Of a DNA stretch of 42,950 nt, positions 25,480 to 30,589 are shown piece after piece; the stretch's first letter is position 1; the number at the start of each line of letters is the position of its first letter. This DNA is from a virus (Duplodnaviria > Heunggongvirae > Uroviricota > Caudoviricetes). Under the pieces are notes generated by a model. That model saw only the letters and a program-made list of their open reading frames with translations, was not told where the DNA came from and searched no databases. Where the stretch lies: IMG/VR virus record IMGVR_UViG_2870479586_000005; one strand, written 5' to 3'. A program made the position numbers and the translations under genes.

Positions 25480-26085
25480 ATGCCATCGGATGACGATTTT
25501 AACAGCCGTTTCAAACAGGAAGTTGCACGCCGACTGAAGGATTCCCTCAACCTACACCGTCAGTTAGCAGAAGAGGTTGAGCCGGAGGACGATGAAACTC
25601 CGGTTCAGTCCCCTGATGAAACTTCACCTCTGCAAAAGATTTCGCACGACCCCAAAAAACCATCTGTCCGTATTCACGGAATAGCCAGAAAAAGAGCTGC
25701 CGAAGCTCGCAAAATGGCTGTAGCTGCGTCTAGCAAAAGAACTCCAACTGCTACACCATCTCAACAAGTCACCCGTACTGAGAGTAAAATCTTGACCGAG
25801 TTCACATCTGTGAAACAGGTGAGTTCACTTGATACCGAGCATGAGCGCAAACAACTCAACAACAAAGATTTTGAAGCTGAAATCGCTCTAAAAAAACGCT
25901 ACGGAAAATGGTTCCTGATAATCCTTGCTTGCCAACTTCTGATAATGAATGGGGTATTTATTGCCGACGGCGCAGGTAAGCTGGAATTTGAGGATTTAAC
26001 ACTACAGTTGTACATGGGCGGTACTTTGACAGAGGTATTCGGCCTCGTGCTGGTCGTGACAAAATACCTTTTTAAACGCAAGTAA
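25480..26085 (+). CDS. Protein with a disordered charged N-terminal region and two C-terminal TM helices
   Basis: 201 aa, starting 9 nt after the ImmA stop. About 140 residues are low-complexity and charged (Pro/Glu/Ser/Lys-rich). Then come KWFLIILACQLLIMNGVFIA and GGTLTEVFGLVLVVTKYLF. Confidence 0.7.
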   Translation: MPSDDDFNSRFKQEVARRLKDSLNLHRQLAEEVEPEDDETPVQSPDETSPLQKISHDPKKPSVRIHGIARKRAAEARKMAVAASSKRTPTATPSQQVTRTESKILTEFTSVKQVSSLDTEHERKQLNNKDFEAEIALKKRYGKWFLIILACQLLIMNGVFIADGAGKLEFEDLTLQLYMGGTLTEVFGLVLVVTKYLFKRK

Positions 26086-26086
26086 C
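26011..26086 (+). repeat. Direct repeat, copy 1 (the true 3' end of the 201-aa gene)
   Basis: About 76 bp, with only a handful of mismatches to 30514-30589. Confidence 0.9.
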
Positions 26087-26333
26087 TCTCTCGGTCCAAC
26101 AGTCTTTCGAAAGCCCTGATCAAAGGGCCTTGATAAATTAGCAGTGCGTTGAAAACAGATAGTTATTCCCATCAGTTCCAACGTAATACACATCAAAAAA
26201 ATCACCATTCTTTTGCTCTACGTCAACACCTACCCTTAAAAAAATAATTCTCCAAGAATGAGAAAGTTATTGTGTGTATTAGATAAGATATGAGCTGACA
26301 CATCTATGGCGTGGAGCCAAACCTAATATGACA

Positions 26334-26370
26334 GTCCGCTCTGTGCCAAGAGCGAACATTACAAACACAC
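26334..26370 (-). repeat. Conserved hairpin motif, copy A (downstream of the 291-aa gene)
   Basis: Minus strand: GTGTGTTTGTAATGTTCGCTCT-TGGCAC-AGAGCGGAC. 9-bp stem (one G-U pair), 6-nt loop. Confidence 0.6.
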
Positions 26371-26509
26371 TAAAATTTATGTTTGTACTTCGCTGTAGCC
26401 ACCTAAAAGTATTATTGCGGGTGGTTTCGTGACAATGTTAGATATTCTTCATTTTGAATTGATTACTGAATTAAGATAAAACCACCCGAATTAAAACTAT
26501 CAAAAGTAT

Positions 26510-27385
26510 CTATGGTTGTTCATCACTCTCTTCTGAAAGTATTTGTACTACTTGTCCACACTCTCCACATACTACGTGTAATTGACTATCTTCTTCGGAC
26601 TTGAAAATCTCACTAACTAAGCTATGACAGTTAGGGCATTTTATCTCGTTATCAAAACCTATGAATTTAAGGAATAAGTTTTGAATTAATGAAACTGCAG
26701 TGCAAGTGAGTATAAGGCAAATTTTAGCGTCAGGAATGTTTTTGTTTGAAGAGTGCACCGTCTCTGCGGAAAAATCCCATGCAGACTCAATCGTTGAGCG
26801 GCAATATTTTCTGAGACTTGAGTTTCGTTTTCCTGCGGCATACAACCCAATAATAATTCGGCAAATATTTTTAAAGTCAGCTGCTTTAATATTTTCTTTT
26901 TTTAATATATCCTCATGAGTTTTATAAAGGTGAGCAGCAAGCTCAACCATGCTCTCTCTACAAGTTAGTCCAATACTTTGAATATCTTCAGGGGCCTTAA
27001 TATTATTCAGAGCAACAGCAGAAGCATTTAACCTCCGGCTAATAGAACGAAGCATATCTATATCTAAAGGTAACTCATCAATAACATGTTTGAAATCATT
27101 GCTATGTCTTGCTTGTAGTCTTTGAGTTATACCCAAATGAAAAGAATATGCTTCATCAGCAGAAAAGAAAAACTCATTTTGAGTGTATAAGTTTAAAGGA
27201 ACGTTTTCACCTTCAGCAACCCACCAGTTACCATCATTTTTTGTTCTGACGTTCCAAATGTTAACCTCAAAACCTAAATCATTAAATGTTTGCTCAACTT
27301 GCATGTTTTTTATGTTTTCTATATTTTGAGTTTTTAAATATTCAGTAATTCTTTTCTCAGCATCGATTCTGTATTCTGGTGTCAT
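26510..27385 (-). CDS. Hypothetical 291-aa protein with a C-terminal zinc ribbon
   Basis: AT-rich gene. Preferred ATG at 27385, with AAGGGA upstream (the track uses a TTG at 27391). C-terminal CPNC-x18-CGEC. An internal RLQARH matches the loose Rx4-6H pattern. A TTAACG-17-TATAAT promoter-like element sits in the 58-nt gap upstream. Confidence 0.6.
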   Translation of the reverse strand: MTPEYRIDAEKRITEYLKTQNIENIKNMQVEQTFNDLGFEVNIWNVRTKNDGNWWVAEGENVPLNLYTQNEFFFSADEAYSFHLGITQRLQARHSNDFKHVIDELPLDIDMLRSISRRLNASAVALNNIKAPEDIQSIGLTCRESMVELAAHLYKTHEDILKKENIKAADFKNICRIIIGLYAAGKRNSSLRKYCRSTIESAWDFSAETVHSSNKNIPDAKICLILTCTAVSLIQNLFLKFIGFDNEIKCPNCHSLVSEIFKSEEDSQLHVVCGECGQVVQILSEESDEQP

Positions 27386-27449
27386 GTGCAATCCCTTTTA
27401 ATAAGATACTAAAAGTAAAAGCGCATTATAGCATAACACATACAATGCG

Positions 27450-28849: not shown

Positions 28850-29514
28850 CACTTTTATCTCATAAATTTTTTTGATATTATCTGCCAATTCTAGCCCCAT
28901 GGGCAATAGCAAAATCGAAAAATACTCTCTACGTAAGGGCAAGCCCTTTCCCCATGGATATTCATCAAATTAAGCGGGTGTACTTAGGTCATATTGACCT
29001 GTTCCTAATTGACGATACACCTCGATGTTCATTAAGCCACTTAGAGTGCTGAGACAGATATGAACTGCAGCTTTTCGCTCACTGCTGCCCTTCAGTAAGC
29101 GAAAAAATGCCTACTCGGTGCCATATACAGTCATGGTTATTAACTACAGGGAATAATTCCACACTGAAATTAAATGTCTGCCTTTTACAGTAGAAATAGT
29201 TTCTCCAGGACACTATCCATTGCCGGGCACAATCACTCGGGGTATAACGATATAAAATATGTTCATGATAGTGCAGGTTCGTATATTAAGTTCAGCAGCG
29301 AAAACATGCCTTACAGGTTTCCGGTTTTGGGAGCGTCGTTACAGGATCCTGCGCATACCGTTCCCATCTGTTGAATTAAAGGTTTCACAGCCTTTGCCGA
29401 TATCGCCTTTTACCTTGCCTGTGATGCGTTCAGTGCTCAGCGTTGTTTACTGTAGCTCTCGGAACTGATTACAGACCGCGTCTTAAAAACCAATCCTTAC
29501 TCTAAAGGGAATTC

Positions 29515-30438
29515 ATGAGATTAAAATACTCAGTACTCTTACTCGCCATTGCCCTTACAGGCTGTGATAACAAAAAAGATGAGATCGGTTGTTCTTCGGA
29601 AATGACCCAATCAGCTCTCATGGATTTATTAAAAAAATCTGCTTATGAAGGACTCTCTGAACAGGTCGATAAATACCCTGATGTCACTAATCAGACCAAA
29701 CGAAGCACACTGGACAAGATCAAACTAGCCGTCTCTGAAATCTCCACAACATCAAGTGACACGGGCAGCACAATGAAAACTTGTGAAGGGACCGTGACGA
29801 TGACTCTACCTGCGAACGAGTACGTCCAGCTTTCAGATGCTTACAGAAAGAATTTTAATCGTAATCTCGACAAGCAAATGGAAAGCCTGTTTTTGGAGAA
29901 CAACGCAAACGCCTTTTCCAAACGTATCACCTACACCGTGCAGGCGACCGACGATCAGAAAAACGTTTTTGTAAAAACCTCTTCTGATAATCCGATATCA
30001 GTGGGCGCCGCTTTACTGACATCACTTTCTATTATCAACCCGATCGTTGAGCAGCAGAAAATCCAGCAGGCTAAGGATGCCCAACAGAGCCAAATTGAAG
30101 CGGAACAACAGGTGCAACTCAGGGCGCAGGAACAGGCTAAGTATGAGGCGGAGAAGCAAATAGAGAGACAGGCACAACTTCAGCCACAAAAAGCTGACAG
30201 CCTTGATCAGTCCCGAATGGCATTTGCGAATGCCGACTCTGATTTGAGTACCGTCTGGAGCAAGTTAACCCCGGCGAAGAAAAAAGATTTGCTGCCTTCT
30301 CAGCGTCAGTGGATCAAAACTAAGGATGCTATGTGCGGTAAAGTTTCAATGCAGGGAACAGATGCTGAAGTCAAGAAAATGCTCGACTGCCAGACGCAAA
30401 TGACCCTTTCAAGAATCGCTTTCCTCAGAAACCAATAA
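29515..30438 (+). CDS. Lipoprotein with a C-terminal DUF1311 (LprI-like) domain
   Basis: Signal peptide and lipobox (LLAIALTGC). Gln-rich coiled-coil middle. The C-terminal ..LSTVWSKL...QRQWIKTKDAMCG....LDCQTQMTLSRIAFL fits the DUF1311 pattern. Confidence 0.75.
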   Translation: MRLKYSVLLLAIALTGCDNKKDEIGCSSEMTQSALMDLLKKSAYEGLSEQVDKYPDVTNQTKRSTLDKIKLAVSEISTTSSDTGSTMKTCEGTVTMTLPANEYVQLSDAYRKNFNRNLDKQMESLFLENNANAFSKRITYTVQATDDQKNVFVKTSSDNPISVGAALLTSLSIINPIVEQQKIQQAKDAQQSQIEAEQQVQLRAQEQAKYEAEKQIERQAQLQPQKADSLDQSRMAFANADSDLSTVWSKLTPAKKKDLLPSQRQWIKTKDAMCGKVSMQGTDAEVKKMLDCQTQMTLSRIAFLRNQ

Positions 30439-30452
30439 CTGAAGTTTCCTTC

Positions 30453-30486
30453 AAGCTGGCGCCAGGTGTTAACCTGGTGCCAGCTT
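30453..30486 (+). terminator. Strong hairpin after the lipoprotein gene (no U-tract)
   Basis: AAGCTGGCGCCAGGT-GTTA-ACCTGGTGCCAGCTT. 15-bp stem with one mismatch. Confidence 0.35.
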
Positions 30487-30513
30487 AGTCATCAAGTGCA
30501 TATTTAACTGTTT

Positions 30514-30589
30514 TATATGGGCGGTACTTTGACAGAGGTATTCGGTCTCGTGCTGGTCGTGGTCAAATACCTTTTTAAACGCAAATAGA
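30514..30589 (+). repeat. Direct repeat, copy 2 (orphan 3' remnant of a homologous gene)
   Basis: Encodes YMGGTLTEVFGLVLVVVKYLFKRK* with no upstream ORF. Compare LYMGGTLTEVFGLVLVVTKYLFKRK* at copy 1. Confidence 0.9.

What the first reader, a model, noticed from the sequence alone, without database searches (positions are those of the whole stretch)
26011..30589. 76-bp direct repeat brackets a 4.4-kb cargo block, a recombination scar that duplicates a gene's 3' end
26011-26086 encodes the last 25 codons plus the stop of the 201-aa 2-TM gene. It is repeated at 30514-30589 with only a few substitutions: LYMGGTLTEVFGLVLVVTKYLFKRK* versus YMGGTLTEVFGLVLVVVKYLFKRK*.

The right copy has no upstream ORF, so it is the stump of an allelic gene.

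Everything between the copies is therefore an insertion or replacement relative to an ancestor in which the 2-TM gene abutted the ORF6N antirepressor-like gene. That covers the 291-aa, 81-aa, DUF2971 and lipoprotein genes.

This defines exact cargo boundaries and shows the locus exchanges cassettes through homology at the end of the 2-TM gene.
Basis: seen in the sequence. Interest (0 to 1): 0.6.

Follow-up and report, generated by a model that had tools for sequence, protein, structure and literature searches.

The report
Gene-end stump beside prophage cargo hotspot
An 81-base repeat in an E. coli-type prophage is the leftover 3' end of a membrane-protein gene: related phages have recombined through it, but the defence-gene cargo nearby is actually swapped at separate hairpin elements shared with P2-like phages.

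Summary
The repeat is real. Window 26004-26085 and 30507-30588 are about 90% identical and form the only significant direct repeat in the window. The right copy is a dead fragment of a once-functional allele of the 2-TM gene: 7 of 9 substitutions are at third codon positions, and one lineage carries a frameshift.

Relatives show recombination through it:
- a precise deletion fusing the two copies (strain GPEC172 and at least 24 contigs);
- hybrid copies that permute the modules (E. whittamii, three pig E. coli).

The only "empty site" found is derived, not ancestral. It is 99.9% identical to occupied ST131 prophages, while the occupied window lineage is 97.5% identical to both.

The repeat does not define the cargo boundaries. 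The 4.4-kb block is composite:
- a conserved LprI-plus-stump module;
- a variable cassette array (about 26349-29074) bounded and subdivided by four copies of a roughly 70-nt double-palindrome element.

That element is the "inverted repeat" flanking the P2 phage Z/fun moron site. Whole cassettes are shared between this lambdoid hotspot and P2-like phages, and the homology ends inside the hairpins.

Verdict: observation confirmed, interpretation partly right. The scar itself is ordinary. The P2-type cassette array in a lambdoid prophage is the more interesting by-product.

The parts
24982..25470 (+). ImmA/IrrE (Peptidase_M78) gene, first gene of the conserved two-gene ImmA-2TM module
   Evidence: Pfam PF06114, E = 8e-18. 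PADLOC CapP-like, 2e-25. Always paired with the 2-TM gene in Klebsiella, E. coli and Cronobacter prophages.
25480..26085 (+). 201-aa 2-TM protein gene. Its C-terminal ~30 residues are nearly invariant across genera.
   Evidence: ORF list. Homologues and their sequences.
26004..26085 (+). Left copy of the direct repeat, which is the live 3' end of the 2-TM gene. It is 100% identical in all loci examined, even where the upstream part of the gene is a different allele.
26086..26333 (.). D1 linker downstream of the 2-TM gene. From about 26246 onward it is homologous to the P2-EC46 Z-region 'left inverted repeat'.
   Evidence: Conserved in the ST131-type, L009 and L010 loci. Alignment A2 with AJ512680.1 positions 3-115.
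26324..26356 (-). Hairpin element copy 1 (HP1 only: GTYCGCTnnTGGCACnnAGCGGAC). The left boundary of the variable cassette (26348|26349) lies in its loop.
   Evidence: Breakpoints at 26348-26361.
26510..27385 (-). 291-aa cargo protein with a C-terminal zinc ribbon (cassette 1 of the window-type cargo)
   Evidence: ORF list. Weak Pfam Zn_Ribbon_TF match. Called as 291 aa in L156, L158 and L160.
27450..27695 (-). '81-aa ORF', probably not a gene. It spans one element copy and overlaps another.
   Evidence: Element copies at 27533-27595 and 27676-27742. Gene callers give 71 aa, 43 aa or nothing in near-identical loci. No family hits.
27533..27595 (-). Hairpin element copy 2 (partial)
   Evidence: nhmmer E = 7e-9. 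Alignment A5.
27676..27742 (-). Hairpin element copy 3 (full, HP1 + HP2). It separates the DUF2971 cassette from the 291-aa cassette.
   Evidence: nhmmer E = 4e-14. Alignments A1 and A5.
27863..28942 (-). DUF2971 protein, a candidate defence gene (PDC-S31). Cassette 2 of the window-type cargo.
   Evidence: Pfam PF11185, 9e-11. PADLOC PDC-S31, 1e-50.
29058..29123 (-). Hairpin element copy 4 (degenerate). The right boundary of the variable cassette (29074|29075) and the type-X breakpoint (29114) both fall inside it.
   Evidence: Alignments A1 and A3. nhmmer E = 0.002. Breakpoints.
29124..29514 (.). E linker upstream of LprI, conserved wherever LprI is present
29515..30438 (+). LprI-family lipoprotein gene. 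It always travels with the stump.
   Evidence: Pfam PF07007. 441 complete E. coli genomes carry LprI plus the stump plus the ORF6N flank contiguously.
30453..30486 (.). 34-nt inverted repeat (AAGCTGGCGCCAGG-TGTTAA-CCTGGTGCCAGCTT) between LprI and the stump. A likely terminator-type hairpin (inference).
   Evidence: Read directly from the sequence. Conserved in all LprI-stump loci.
30507..30588 (+). Right copy of the direct repeat: a pseudogene stump of a 2-TM allele's 3' end (the residual 23-codon ORF 30517-30588 is not conserved)
30613..31449 (-). ORF6N-domain antirepressor-like gene, the right anchor of the hotspot
   Evidence: Pfam PF10543, 9e-22.
31453..31650 (-). C4 antisense RNA (31453-31538), isrK (31563-31637) and the a1/b1 targets (31598-31650) upstream of ORF6N. 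An immI-type, RNA-controlled antirepressor operon.
   Evidence: Rfam hits above the gathering scores.

Best explanation
**What it is.** The right copy (30507-30588) is a non-functional remnant of the 3' end of a closely related, once-functional allele of the 2-TM gene. It sits at the right edge of a moron and defence hotspot in a lambdoid prophage, between the ImmA-2TM module and an RNA-controlled ORF6N antirepressor operon.

**How it arose (inferred).** One illegitimate event truncated a 2-TM gene about 16 nt upstream of an internal ATG. The resulting fragment became attached to the LprI module.

**How it behaves now (shown by natural variants).** The last ~80 nt of the 2-TM gene encode the most conserved part of the protein, so every related phage carrying the gene shares this patch. 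General homologous recombination (RecA or phage Red/RecT-type; the enzyme is inferred) between the stump and live 2-TM genes has repeatedly re-joined what lies on either side. In the window lineage a crossover in the patch placed [D1 + cassette array + LprI] between an intact 2-TM gene and ORF6N. In the GPEC172 lineage a crossover between the two copies deleted the block again and left an intact chimeric gene. In other lineages it permuted the modules.

**How the cargo is exchanged.** Turnover of the cargo genes inside the block does not use this repeat. It occurs at a separate ~70-nt double-palindrome element (HP1 GTCCGCTnnTGGCACnnAGCGGAC plus HP2). This element is the same one that flanks the Z/fun moron site of P2-like phages. 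It bounds each cassette, and cassette homology between phage families ends inside it. The enzyme acting there is unknown.
For: **Repeat.** Real and unique in the window.

**Coding-type divergence.** Nine distinct substitutions across three stump variants, seven at third codon positions (binomial P = 0.008), with the stop preserved. A 1-nt frameshifting deletion in the L008/L031/L004 lineage shows it is now a pseudogene.

**Close-allele origin.** The stump is 90% identical to the live end, while distant alleles are only 72-77% identical at DNA level despite a near-invariant protein C-terminus.

**Deletion product.** GPEC172 has a single copy with left-type 5' markers and right-type 3' markers, including an ST131-specific SNP. 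The crossover lies in the 32-nt identical core. Its flanks are 99.9% identical to occupied ST131 prophages, against 97.5% to the occupied window. The chimeric protein is on 23 or more contigs, and all 24 contigs read show the same neighbourhood.

**Hybrids and permutations.** L004's second copy has the L008-type 5' part (with the frameshift) and a left-type 3' end followed by D1. Three complete E. coli genomes have LprI, then the repeat, then D1. One shared 5' junction motif is joined to at least four different 3' parts.

**R-type end next to ORF6N.** Seen in both the 81-nt and the 13-nt remnants.

**Cargo boundaries at hairpin elements.** Element copies lie at 26324-26356, 27533-27595, 27676-27742 and 29058-29123, and at both cargo ends in ST131, L009 (four copies), L010 and A42. 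D1 is homologous to the P2 'left inverted repeat' annotated in AJ512680.1. The ST131 232-aa cassette (87% over 1731 nt) and the L009 251-aa cassette (96.6%) lie exactly between P2 left and right repeats in P2-like contigs, and the homology ends inside HP1 and HP2.

**Recent turnover.** The identical 2-TM protein is linked to three cargo types.
Against: - No full-length right-type allele next to ORF6N was found, apart from the derived GPEC172 chimera. The ancestral 'empty' arrangement is therefore inferred from remnants, not observed.
- The 13-nt remnant could descend from the 81-nt stump rather than being an independent truncation.
- Which downstream context the LprI-stump junction first had (D1 or the ORF6N flank) cannot be resolved.
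- The direction of each inferred crossover rests on parsimony.
- The codon-position test uses only nine events.
- For the hairpin element, palindromic symmetry is well kept (80% paired against about 40% in the controls) but compensatory changes are few. Homologous exchange at a short conserved motif cannot be told apart from true site-specific recombination.
Confidence: 0.75

Rival explanations
1. The 4.4 kb between the copies is one insertion into an ancestral site where the 2-TM gene abutted ORF6N. The repeat edges are the exact cargo boundaries, and GPEC172-type genomes are the surviving empty site.
For: An unoccupied configuration exists and matches a synthetic empty-site junction as a single 1466-nt piece. 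The stump is contiguous with the ORF6N flank.
Against: GPEC172 is 99.9% identical to occupied ST131 prophages, while the occupied window lineage is 97.5% identical to both, so the empty state is nested and derived. Its single copy is a left/right chimera carrying an ST131-specific SNP. Breakpoints among relatives are not at the repeat edges. The block is composite, and LprI plus the stump is conserved.
Confidence: 0.1
2. The repeat is an in-situ duplication. Either it is a target-site duplication made when a mobile element inserted, or it is a local tandem duplication that later drifted apart.
For: Direct repeats that bracket foreign DNA are the classic signature of insertion.
Against: 81 nt is far longer than known target-site duplications. 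The copies differ by 10% while the flanks are 97-100% conserved. The differences are synonymous-biased. The same left/right differences are fixed across lineages that are 2.5-8% diverged. There is no transposase and no terminal inverted repeat at the edges. The IS elements seen in some ST131 variants are secondary.
Confidence: 0.04
3. The 81-nt sequence is itself a site-specific recombination (att-like) site at which a recombinase inserts and removes cargo.
For: It recurs at the edges of variable DNA in several arrangements.
Against: The crossover points differ between events: within the 32-nt core in GPEC172, and within the last ~20 nt in L004. This is typical of general homologous recombination. 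The sequence has no dyad symmetry (one search reports no inverted repeat within it). Its conservation is explained by protein constraint. No recombinase is encoded in 24.9-31.5 kb. Actual cassette junctions map to a different, palindromic element.
Confidence: 0.05
4. The stump is retained because it is functional, either as a 23-aa single-helix membrane micro-protein (ORF 30517-30588) or as part of the ORF6N 3' UTR or terminator.
For: The ATG-to-TAG mini-ORF is intact in the window and ST131 lineages, and it encodes the family's most conserved helix. The truncation point lies just upstream of that ATG.
Against: The mini-ORF is frameshifted in the L008/L031/L004 lineage. It has a premature stop in the L172/L173 left copies, is largely deleted in A42, and is reduced to 13 nt in L010 and A42. 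No Rfam family matches it.
Confidence: 0.06

Closest known systems
Mosaic joints and partial-gene remnants in lambdoid phages (illegitimate recombination followed by homologous exchange at conserved gene ends; Hendrix/Juhala-type 'moron' and mosaicism model, cited from my own knowledge)
   Same: A truncated copy of a neighbouring gene marks a past non-homologous join. A conserved gene end serves as shared homology for later exchange. The flanked DNA has low GC and is accessory, transcribed against or independently of the phage operons.
   Different: Natural variants here directly document both outcomes of recombination through the scar: a precise deletion and a module permutation. The scar also sits next to a second, distinct exchange system.
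P2-like phage Z/fun variable region flanked by 'left/right inverted repeats' (GenBank AJ512680 and AJ512676; Nilsson, Karlsson & Haggard-Ljungquist 2004, Mol Biol Evol 21:1, pmid 12949155; paper not readable here)
   Same: The same hairpin (GTCCGCT..TGCCA..AGCGGAC) sits at the cargo-proximal end of a ~113-nt left repeat that is homologous to D1. The right side begins with the same half-element. The cargo is variable accessory and defence genes. Identical cassettes are shared.
   Different: The host backbone is a lambdoid prophage (between ImmA-2TM and an antirepressor), not the G-FI interval of a P2-like phage. The site holds arrays of up to four cassettes separated by composite HP1+HP2 elements.
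P2/P4 defence hotspots (Rousset et al. 2022, PMC9122126)
   Same: A phage-borne hotspot carrying anti-phage genes. PD-T4-3, PDC-S31/DUF2971, SMEK and GIY-YIG proteins are found here.
   Different: That paper states that the exchange mechanism is unknown and speculates about proximity to cos. Here the junctions map to a specific palindromic element, in a phage family with a different genome layout.
Integron gene-cassette arrays (attC-bounded cassettes)
   Same: Arrays of single-gene or few-gene cassettes, each delimited by an imperfect-palindrome element of about 60-70 nt in one orientation.
   Different: No IntI-type integrase or attI is nearby. The element does not fit the attC R''/R' core consensus (RYYYAAC / GTTRRRY) by inspection. 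The cassette genes lie in both orientations.
PeSL 'mobile regulatory cassettes' of T4-type phages (Arbiol et al. 2010, cited from my own knowledge)
   Same: A short repeated stem-loop motif flanks novel ORFs in hyperplastic regions and is proposed to mediate shuffling by recombination between the motifs.
   Different: The sequence, phage group and lifestyle differ. No promoter function has been shown for the element here.

Membership tests
Recombination scar (partial gene duplication at a phage mosaic joint) | Two copies significantly similar, beyond chance | tested here: met
   81 nt at 90% identity. Self-BLAST E = 1.8e-23, the only such pair in the window.
Recombination scar (partial gene duplication at a phage mosaic joint) | One copy is part of an intact gene and the other is truncated with no ORF leading into it | tested here: met
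   The left copy ends the 201-aa ORF. The right copy has an in-frame TAA at 30505-30507 and unrelated upstream sequence.
Recombination scar (partial gene duplication at a phage mosaic joint) | The truncated copy derives from a functional allele (coding-type divergence) and now decays | tested here: met
   7 of 9 substitutions at third codon positions, P = 0.008. Frameshift, premature stop and deletions in other lineages.
Recombination scar (partial gene duplication at a phage mosaic joint) | Relatives show alternative arrangements that can be explained by crossover in the repeat | tested here: met
   GPEC172 deletion chimera. Hybrid copies in L004, L172 and L173.
   The only unoccupied form is 99.9% identical to occupied ST131 prophages and is chimeric. 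None found in IMG/VR, the metagenome scan or the protein cluster representatives.
Target-site duplication of a transposable element | Short, initially identical duplication flanking an element with terminal inverted repeats and a transposase | tested here: not met
   81 nt long, 10% diverged with coding bias. No transposase or terminal inverted repeats at the edges.
P2 Z/fun-type inverted-repeat-flanked cassette site | Left flank homologous to the P2 'left inverted repeat', ending in the GTCCGCT..TGCCA..AGCGGAC hairpin next to the cargo | tested here: met
   Alignment A2: window 26246-26357 against AJ512680.1 positions 3-115.
P2 Z/fun-type inverted-repeat-flanked cassette site | Right flank begins with the CTCGCTCA..GC.GAC half-element | tested here: met
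   Window 29073 onward (degenerate copy) against AJ512680.1 position 3166 onward.
P2 Z/fun-type inverted-repeat-flanked cassette site | The same cassettes occur in bona fide P2-like Z sites, with homology ending in the repeats | tested here: met
   L001 against L106, and L009 against L040. This was shown for relatives' cassettes, not for the window's own two cassettes.
P2 Z/fun-type inverted-repeat-flanked cassette site | Located between the tail-fibre assembly gene G and FI of a P2-like phage | tested here: not met
   Here it lies between ImmA-2TM and ORF6N, in a lambdoid prophage with Q, DnaB and YdaT genes.
P2 Z/fun-type inverted-repeat-flanked cassette site | Exchange catalysed by a site-specific recombinase | not testable with these tools
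   The enzyme is unknown. Palindrome symmetry is conserved but covariation is weak.
Integron cassette array | IntI integrase and attI adjacent, attC sites with R''/R' cores | tested here: not met
   No integrase domain among the hotspot proteins. The element's sequence does not fit the attC cores by inspection. The rest of the window was not scanned for IntI.

The most novel reading that the evidence does not exclude
The ~70-nt double-palindrome element (HP1 + HP2) is the recombination site of a dedicated, still unidentified cassette-exchange system. On this reading the system operates across phage families (P2-like and lambdoid), builds integron-like multi-cassette arrays of defence genes, and explains the rapid turnover at phage defence hotspots. 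The 2-TM stump would then be only a by-product of how such an array was captured by this prophage.
Probability: 0.25. Interest if true: 0.75.

Novelty: new member of a known kind. Interest (0 to 1): 0.45.

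Why it matters
Taken alone, the repeat is a textbook-type mosaic scar. It is useful mainly as a clean natural example in which both products of recombination through about 80 nt of imperfect homology can be seen in sequenced genomes: a precise deletion that restores an intact chimeric gene, and module permutation.

The more consequential point is that the defence-gene cargo at this lambdoid hotspot is delimited by the same palindromic element that flanks the P2 Z/fun hotspot, and that whole cassettes are shared between the two phage families with junctions inside that element. 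Rousset et al. 2022 state that the mechanism of gene exchange at P2/P4 hotspots is unknown. A defined junction element present in more than 120 viral contigs gives that question a concrete, testable handle. It also gives a practical marker for locating cassette boundaries and new defence candidates such as the 291-aa and DUF2971 genes here.

Tried and rejected
- **Ancestral empty site.** Searched the E. coli complete genomes with a synthetic junction. The one hit is a derived deletion.
- **Full-length right-type (…VVVKYLFKRK) allele.** None found among 48 homologue clusters, nor in the IMG/VR or metagenome core-probe hits.
- **GTDB species representatives.** The scan gave only one locus, E. 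whittamii.
- **Window's own cassette in complete E. coli RefSeq genomes.** Absent except for a CRISPR spacer match. It was then found by exact-protein look-up in three assemblies.
- **Exact look-up of a shortened DUF2971 product.** Failed, probably because the start codon was guessed wrongly.
- **Rfam.** No family matches the repeat or the hairpin element.
- **Sigma-54 promoter reading of the TGGCAC loop, and attC reading of the element.** Both rejected by inspection of spacing and core consensus.
- **Literature string search for the hairpin sequence.** No hits.
- **Key papers.** Nilsson 2004 and Odegrip 2006 are not held in the library, so what they say about the repeats is taken only from the GenBank annotation, the paper's title and my memory.
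- **Promoter/terminator scan of the region.** No more hits than in shuffled sequence.
- **Mini-ORF function for the stump.** Rejected because the ORF is broken in several lineages.
- **Alignment A4.** Contained a dummy row by mistake and was replaced by A5.

Full report
**1. Observation**

The repeat exists as described.
- The repeat finder reports 26004-26084 and 30507-30587 as an ungapped 81-nt pair at 90% identity.
- A self-BLAST of the whole window finds it as the only significant direct repeat (E = 1.8e-23).
- The left copy is the last ~27 codons and the stop of the 201-aa ORF 25480-26085.
- The right copy is preceded by an in-frame TAA (30505-30507) and by sequence unrelated to the gene, so no ORF leads into it.
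- The window is 100% identical over 12.6 kb to GCA_003044015.1 CP027104.1, and its arrangement recurs in two other assemblies. It is therefore not an assembly quirk.

**2. Context**

The locus lies in the early region of a lambdoid prophage, between the replicative helicase (33298-34689, minus strand) and the Q antiterminator (21497-22081, minus strand). The genes, left to right, are:
- an ImmA/IrrE M78 peptidase gene and the 2-TM gene. This is a conserved two-gene module, also found beside integrases or ORF6N genes in Klebsiella, E. coli and Cronobacter prophages;
- a low-GC block (32-36% GC) carrying a 291-aa zinc-ribbon protein and a DUF2971/PDC-S31 protein;
- an LprI-family lipoprotein gene;
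- the stump;
- an ORF6N antirepressor-like gene, preceded by C4 antisense RNA, isrK and the a1/b1 targets. This is an immI-type RNA-controlled operon.

**3. The stump is the remnant of a functional allele**

Three stump variants occur among relatives. Relative to the live gene end they carry nine distinct substitutions. Seven are at third codon positions (P = 0.008), only one codon is non-synonymous (T to V), and the stop is preserved as TAA to TAG. One lineage has since acquired a 1-nt frameshifting deletion. Other copies have a premature stop or internal deletions. So the fragment diverged as coding DNA and is now decaying.

The protein family's C-terminal ~30 residues are almost invariant from Escherichia to Serratia and Plesiomonas. 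At DNA level, however, distant alleles are only 72-77% identical over this stretch. The 90%-identical stump therefore came from a close allele within this phage group.

**4. The 'empty site' exists but is derived**

A synthetic junction (the 2-TM gene fused to the sequence right of the stump) matches one of 5,426 complete E. coli genomes as a single 1,466-nt piece. That genome is GPEC172.
- Its single copy has left-type markers at the 5' end and right-type markers at the 3' end, including an ST131-specific A to G change. The switch lies inside the 32-nt stretch where the two copies are identical.
- Its flanks differ from an occupied ST131-type prophage at 8 of 8,176 positions. The window, which is also occupied and has the same repeat pair, is only about 97.5% identical to either. 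By parsimony the unoccupied state is a recent deletion formed by crossover between the two copies.
- The chimeric protein occurs on 23 or more contigs. All 24 contigs read show the same neighbourhood, so the event is real and clonal.

**5. Other products of recombination through the patch**

- In E. whittamii (L004) the order is 2-TM, cargo X, LprI, repeat, D1, cargo B, ORF6N. The second repeat copy combines the frameshifted L008-type 5' part with a left-type 3' end and left-type downstream sequence.
- Three pig E. coli genomes also have LprI, then the repeat, then D1. There the stump ends …YLFNRK*, a third allele type.
- Phages that lack ImmA-2TM altogether (A42, L172, L173) still carry a decayed stump plus D1 at the left edge of their cargo.
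- All stumps share a junction motif, ATCA[AGT]GCA[A/T]ACG, upstream of the gene-derived part. This argues for a single original truncation. That one 5' junction is now attached to at least four different 3' portions and downstream contexts, which is the expected outcome of repeated crossovers within the ~80-nt patch.
- In L010 and A42 only the last 13 nt of the right-type ORF (TAAGCGCAAATAG) remain next to the ORF6N flank. No intact, non-chimeric example of that arrangement was found.

**6. The repeat does not define the cargo**

Homology breakpoints between the window and its relatives lie at 26092, 26348-26361, 29075, 29114 and 30313. LprI plus the stump is a conserved module: 441 complete genomes have it contiguous with the ORF6N flank. 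The part that actually varies is about 26349-29074. It is replaced by:
- a 232-aa gene (ST131 type);
- a GIY-YIG/T5orf172 set (type X);
- a 266-aa gene;
- a four-cassette array that includes PD-T4-3;
- a 5-kb SMEK/methyltransferase block.

The identical 2-TM protein is linked to three of these cargo types, so the turnover is recent.

**7. What does define the cargo**

A hairpin straddles the left breakpoint (GTCCGCTCTGTGCCAAGAGCGAAC, 26334-26357) and recurs within the block. Alignment shows it is part of a ~70-nt element made of two palindromes with the same arms: HP1 with loop TGGCAC and HP2 with loop TGAGCGA.

A profile search places copies, all in one orientation, at:
- window 26324-26356, 27533-27595, 27676-27742 and 29058-29123;
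- both ends of the ST131 cassette;
- four positions in L009, roughly one per gene;
- both cargo ends in L010 and A42.

Within the window the element is confined to the hotspot.

HP1 is found exactly in more than 120 viral contigs. Its cargo side is hypervariable, while its other side falls into a few conserved families. One of those families is the end of gene G of P2-like phages. GenBank AJ512680.1 (P2-EC46 'proviral Z-region') annotates it as 'left inverted repeat', with a matching 'right inverted repeat' that begins with the HP2 half. The last ~115 nt of D1 are homologous to that left repeat.

Cassettes are shared across phage families. The ST131 232-aa cassette (L001 4393-6108) is 87% identical to a segment lying exactly between the P2 left and right repeats of a P2-like contig. 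L009's 251-aa cassette is 96.6% identical to another such segment. In both cases the homology ends inside HP1 and HP2.

The palindromic symmetry is well maintained (80% of cells paired, against 38-41% in slid controls). Compensatory changes are few, so I cannot distinguish a folded nucleic-acid signal from a protein-binding palindrome.

**8. Mechanism, with status of each step**

Shown:
- the repeat, its coding-type divergence and its decay;
- a natural deletion and natural hybrids with crossovers at different positions inside the repeat;
- cargo junctions at the hairpin elements;
- cassette sharing with P2-like phages.

Inferred:
- a single illegitimate truncation created the stump;
- general homologous recombination (RecA or a phage recombinase) acts on the patch;
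- an ancestor had a right-type 2-TM gene abutting ORF6N;
- the window arrangement arose by a crossover in the patch between an LprI-stump-bearing phage and such an ancestor.

Unknown:
- the enzyme and chemistry acting at the hairpin elements. The title of the 2004 paper proposes site-specific recombination. I could not read the paper, and Rousset et al. 2022 regard the mechanism at P2 hotspots as open.

**9. Novelty and verdict**

A gene-end remnant at a phage mosaic joint is an ordinary kind of feature. This one is well documented by natural variants but would not surprise a specialist.

The by-product is of more interest. A P2-Z/fun-type, hairpin-delimited, multi-cassette defence array sits in a lambdoid prophage and shares cassettes with P2-like phages. 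This rests on a known element (annotated in 2004), so I class the whole as a new member of a known kind, with moderate interest.

Noticed in passing
window 26324-26356, 27533-27595, 27676-27742, 29058-29123 (minus strand); also L009 8846-11921 and L010 13939-14010: A ~70-nt double-palindrome element (HP1 GTCCGCTnnTGGCACnnAGCGGAC plus HP2 with the same arms) bounds every cassette in the hotspot. It is the 'inverted repeat' of the P2 Z/fun region, occurs in more than 120 viral contigs, and whole cassettes are shared with P2-like phages with junctions inside it.
   Followed up: yes
window 26036-26068, 28719-28752, 29507-29550, 29988-30020, about 31244-31276: Annotated E. coli CRISPR arrays contain spacers matching this prophage region. 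The targets are the repeat itself (100% over 33 nt, NZ_AP045789.1), the DUF2971 cargo gene (six genomes), the LprI gene (two sites) and ORF6N.
   Followed up: no
window 31453-31650 (minus strand): Rfam isrK, C4 antisense RNA and the c4-a1b1 targets lie directly upstream of the ORF6N gene. This indicates a P1 immI / Gifsy AnrP-type RNA-controlled antirepressor operon.
   Followed up: partly
window 24116-24719: A second replaced segment, upstream of the ImmA gene, differs between the window and ST131-type prophages (about 600 nt against about 510 nt). E. whittamii and type-X loci match the window here. No hairpin element was detected in it.
   Followed up: no
window 27450-27695 (minus strand): The '81-aa gene' overlaps two copies of the non-coding hairpin element. 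In near-identical loci it is called as 71 aa, 43 aa or not at all, so it is probably spurious.
   Followed up: partly
window 24982-26085; L161, L164, L168: ImmA(M78, 162 aa) plus the 2-TM protein is a conserved mobile two-gene module found at different prophage positions in several genera. The 2-TM C-terminal helix is nearly invariant while the N-terminal half is about 45% identical. Function unknown; the peptidase resembles CapP in PADLOC.
   Followed up: partly
L004 8400-8530 (E. whittamii), also L010 and L024: Full-length 2-TM alleles carry a short divergent patch (about 76% identity over 90 nt) immediately upstream of the 100%-conserved last 81 nt. The start of the repeat therefore coincides with a mosaic boundary inside live genes as well.
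   Followed up: partly
L009 12013-12840; L030 2184-6658; L172 3864-5509: Alternative cargos at the same hotspot include PD-T4-3 (E = 2e-137), a SMEK-domain protein with a methyltransferase, and a DUF262 protein pair. Several cargo proteins (134, 232, 251, 266 and 450 aa) have no family assignment.
   Followed up: partly
E. coli genome hits H2, H3, H19 (ST131-type loci): Some ST131-type copies of the hotspot carry secondary IS1 or ISEc23 insertions.
   Followed up: no
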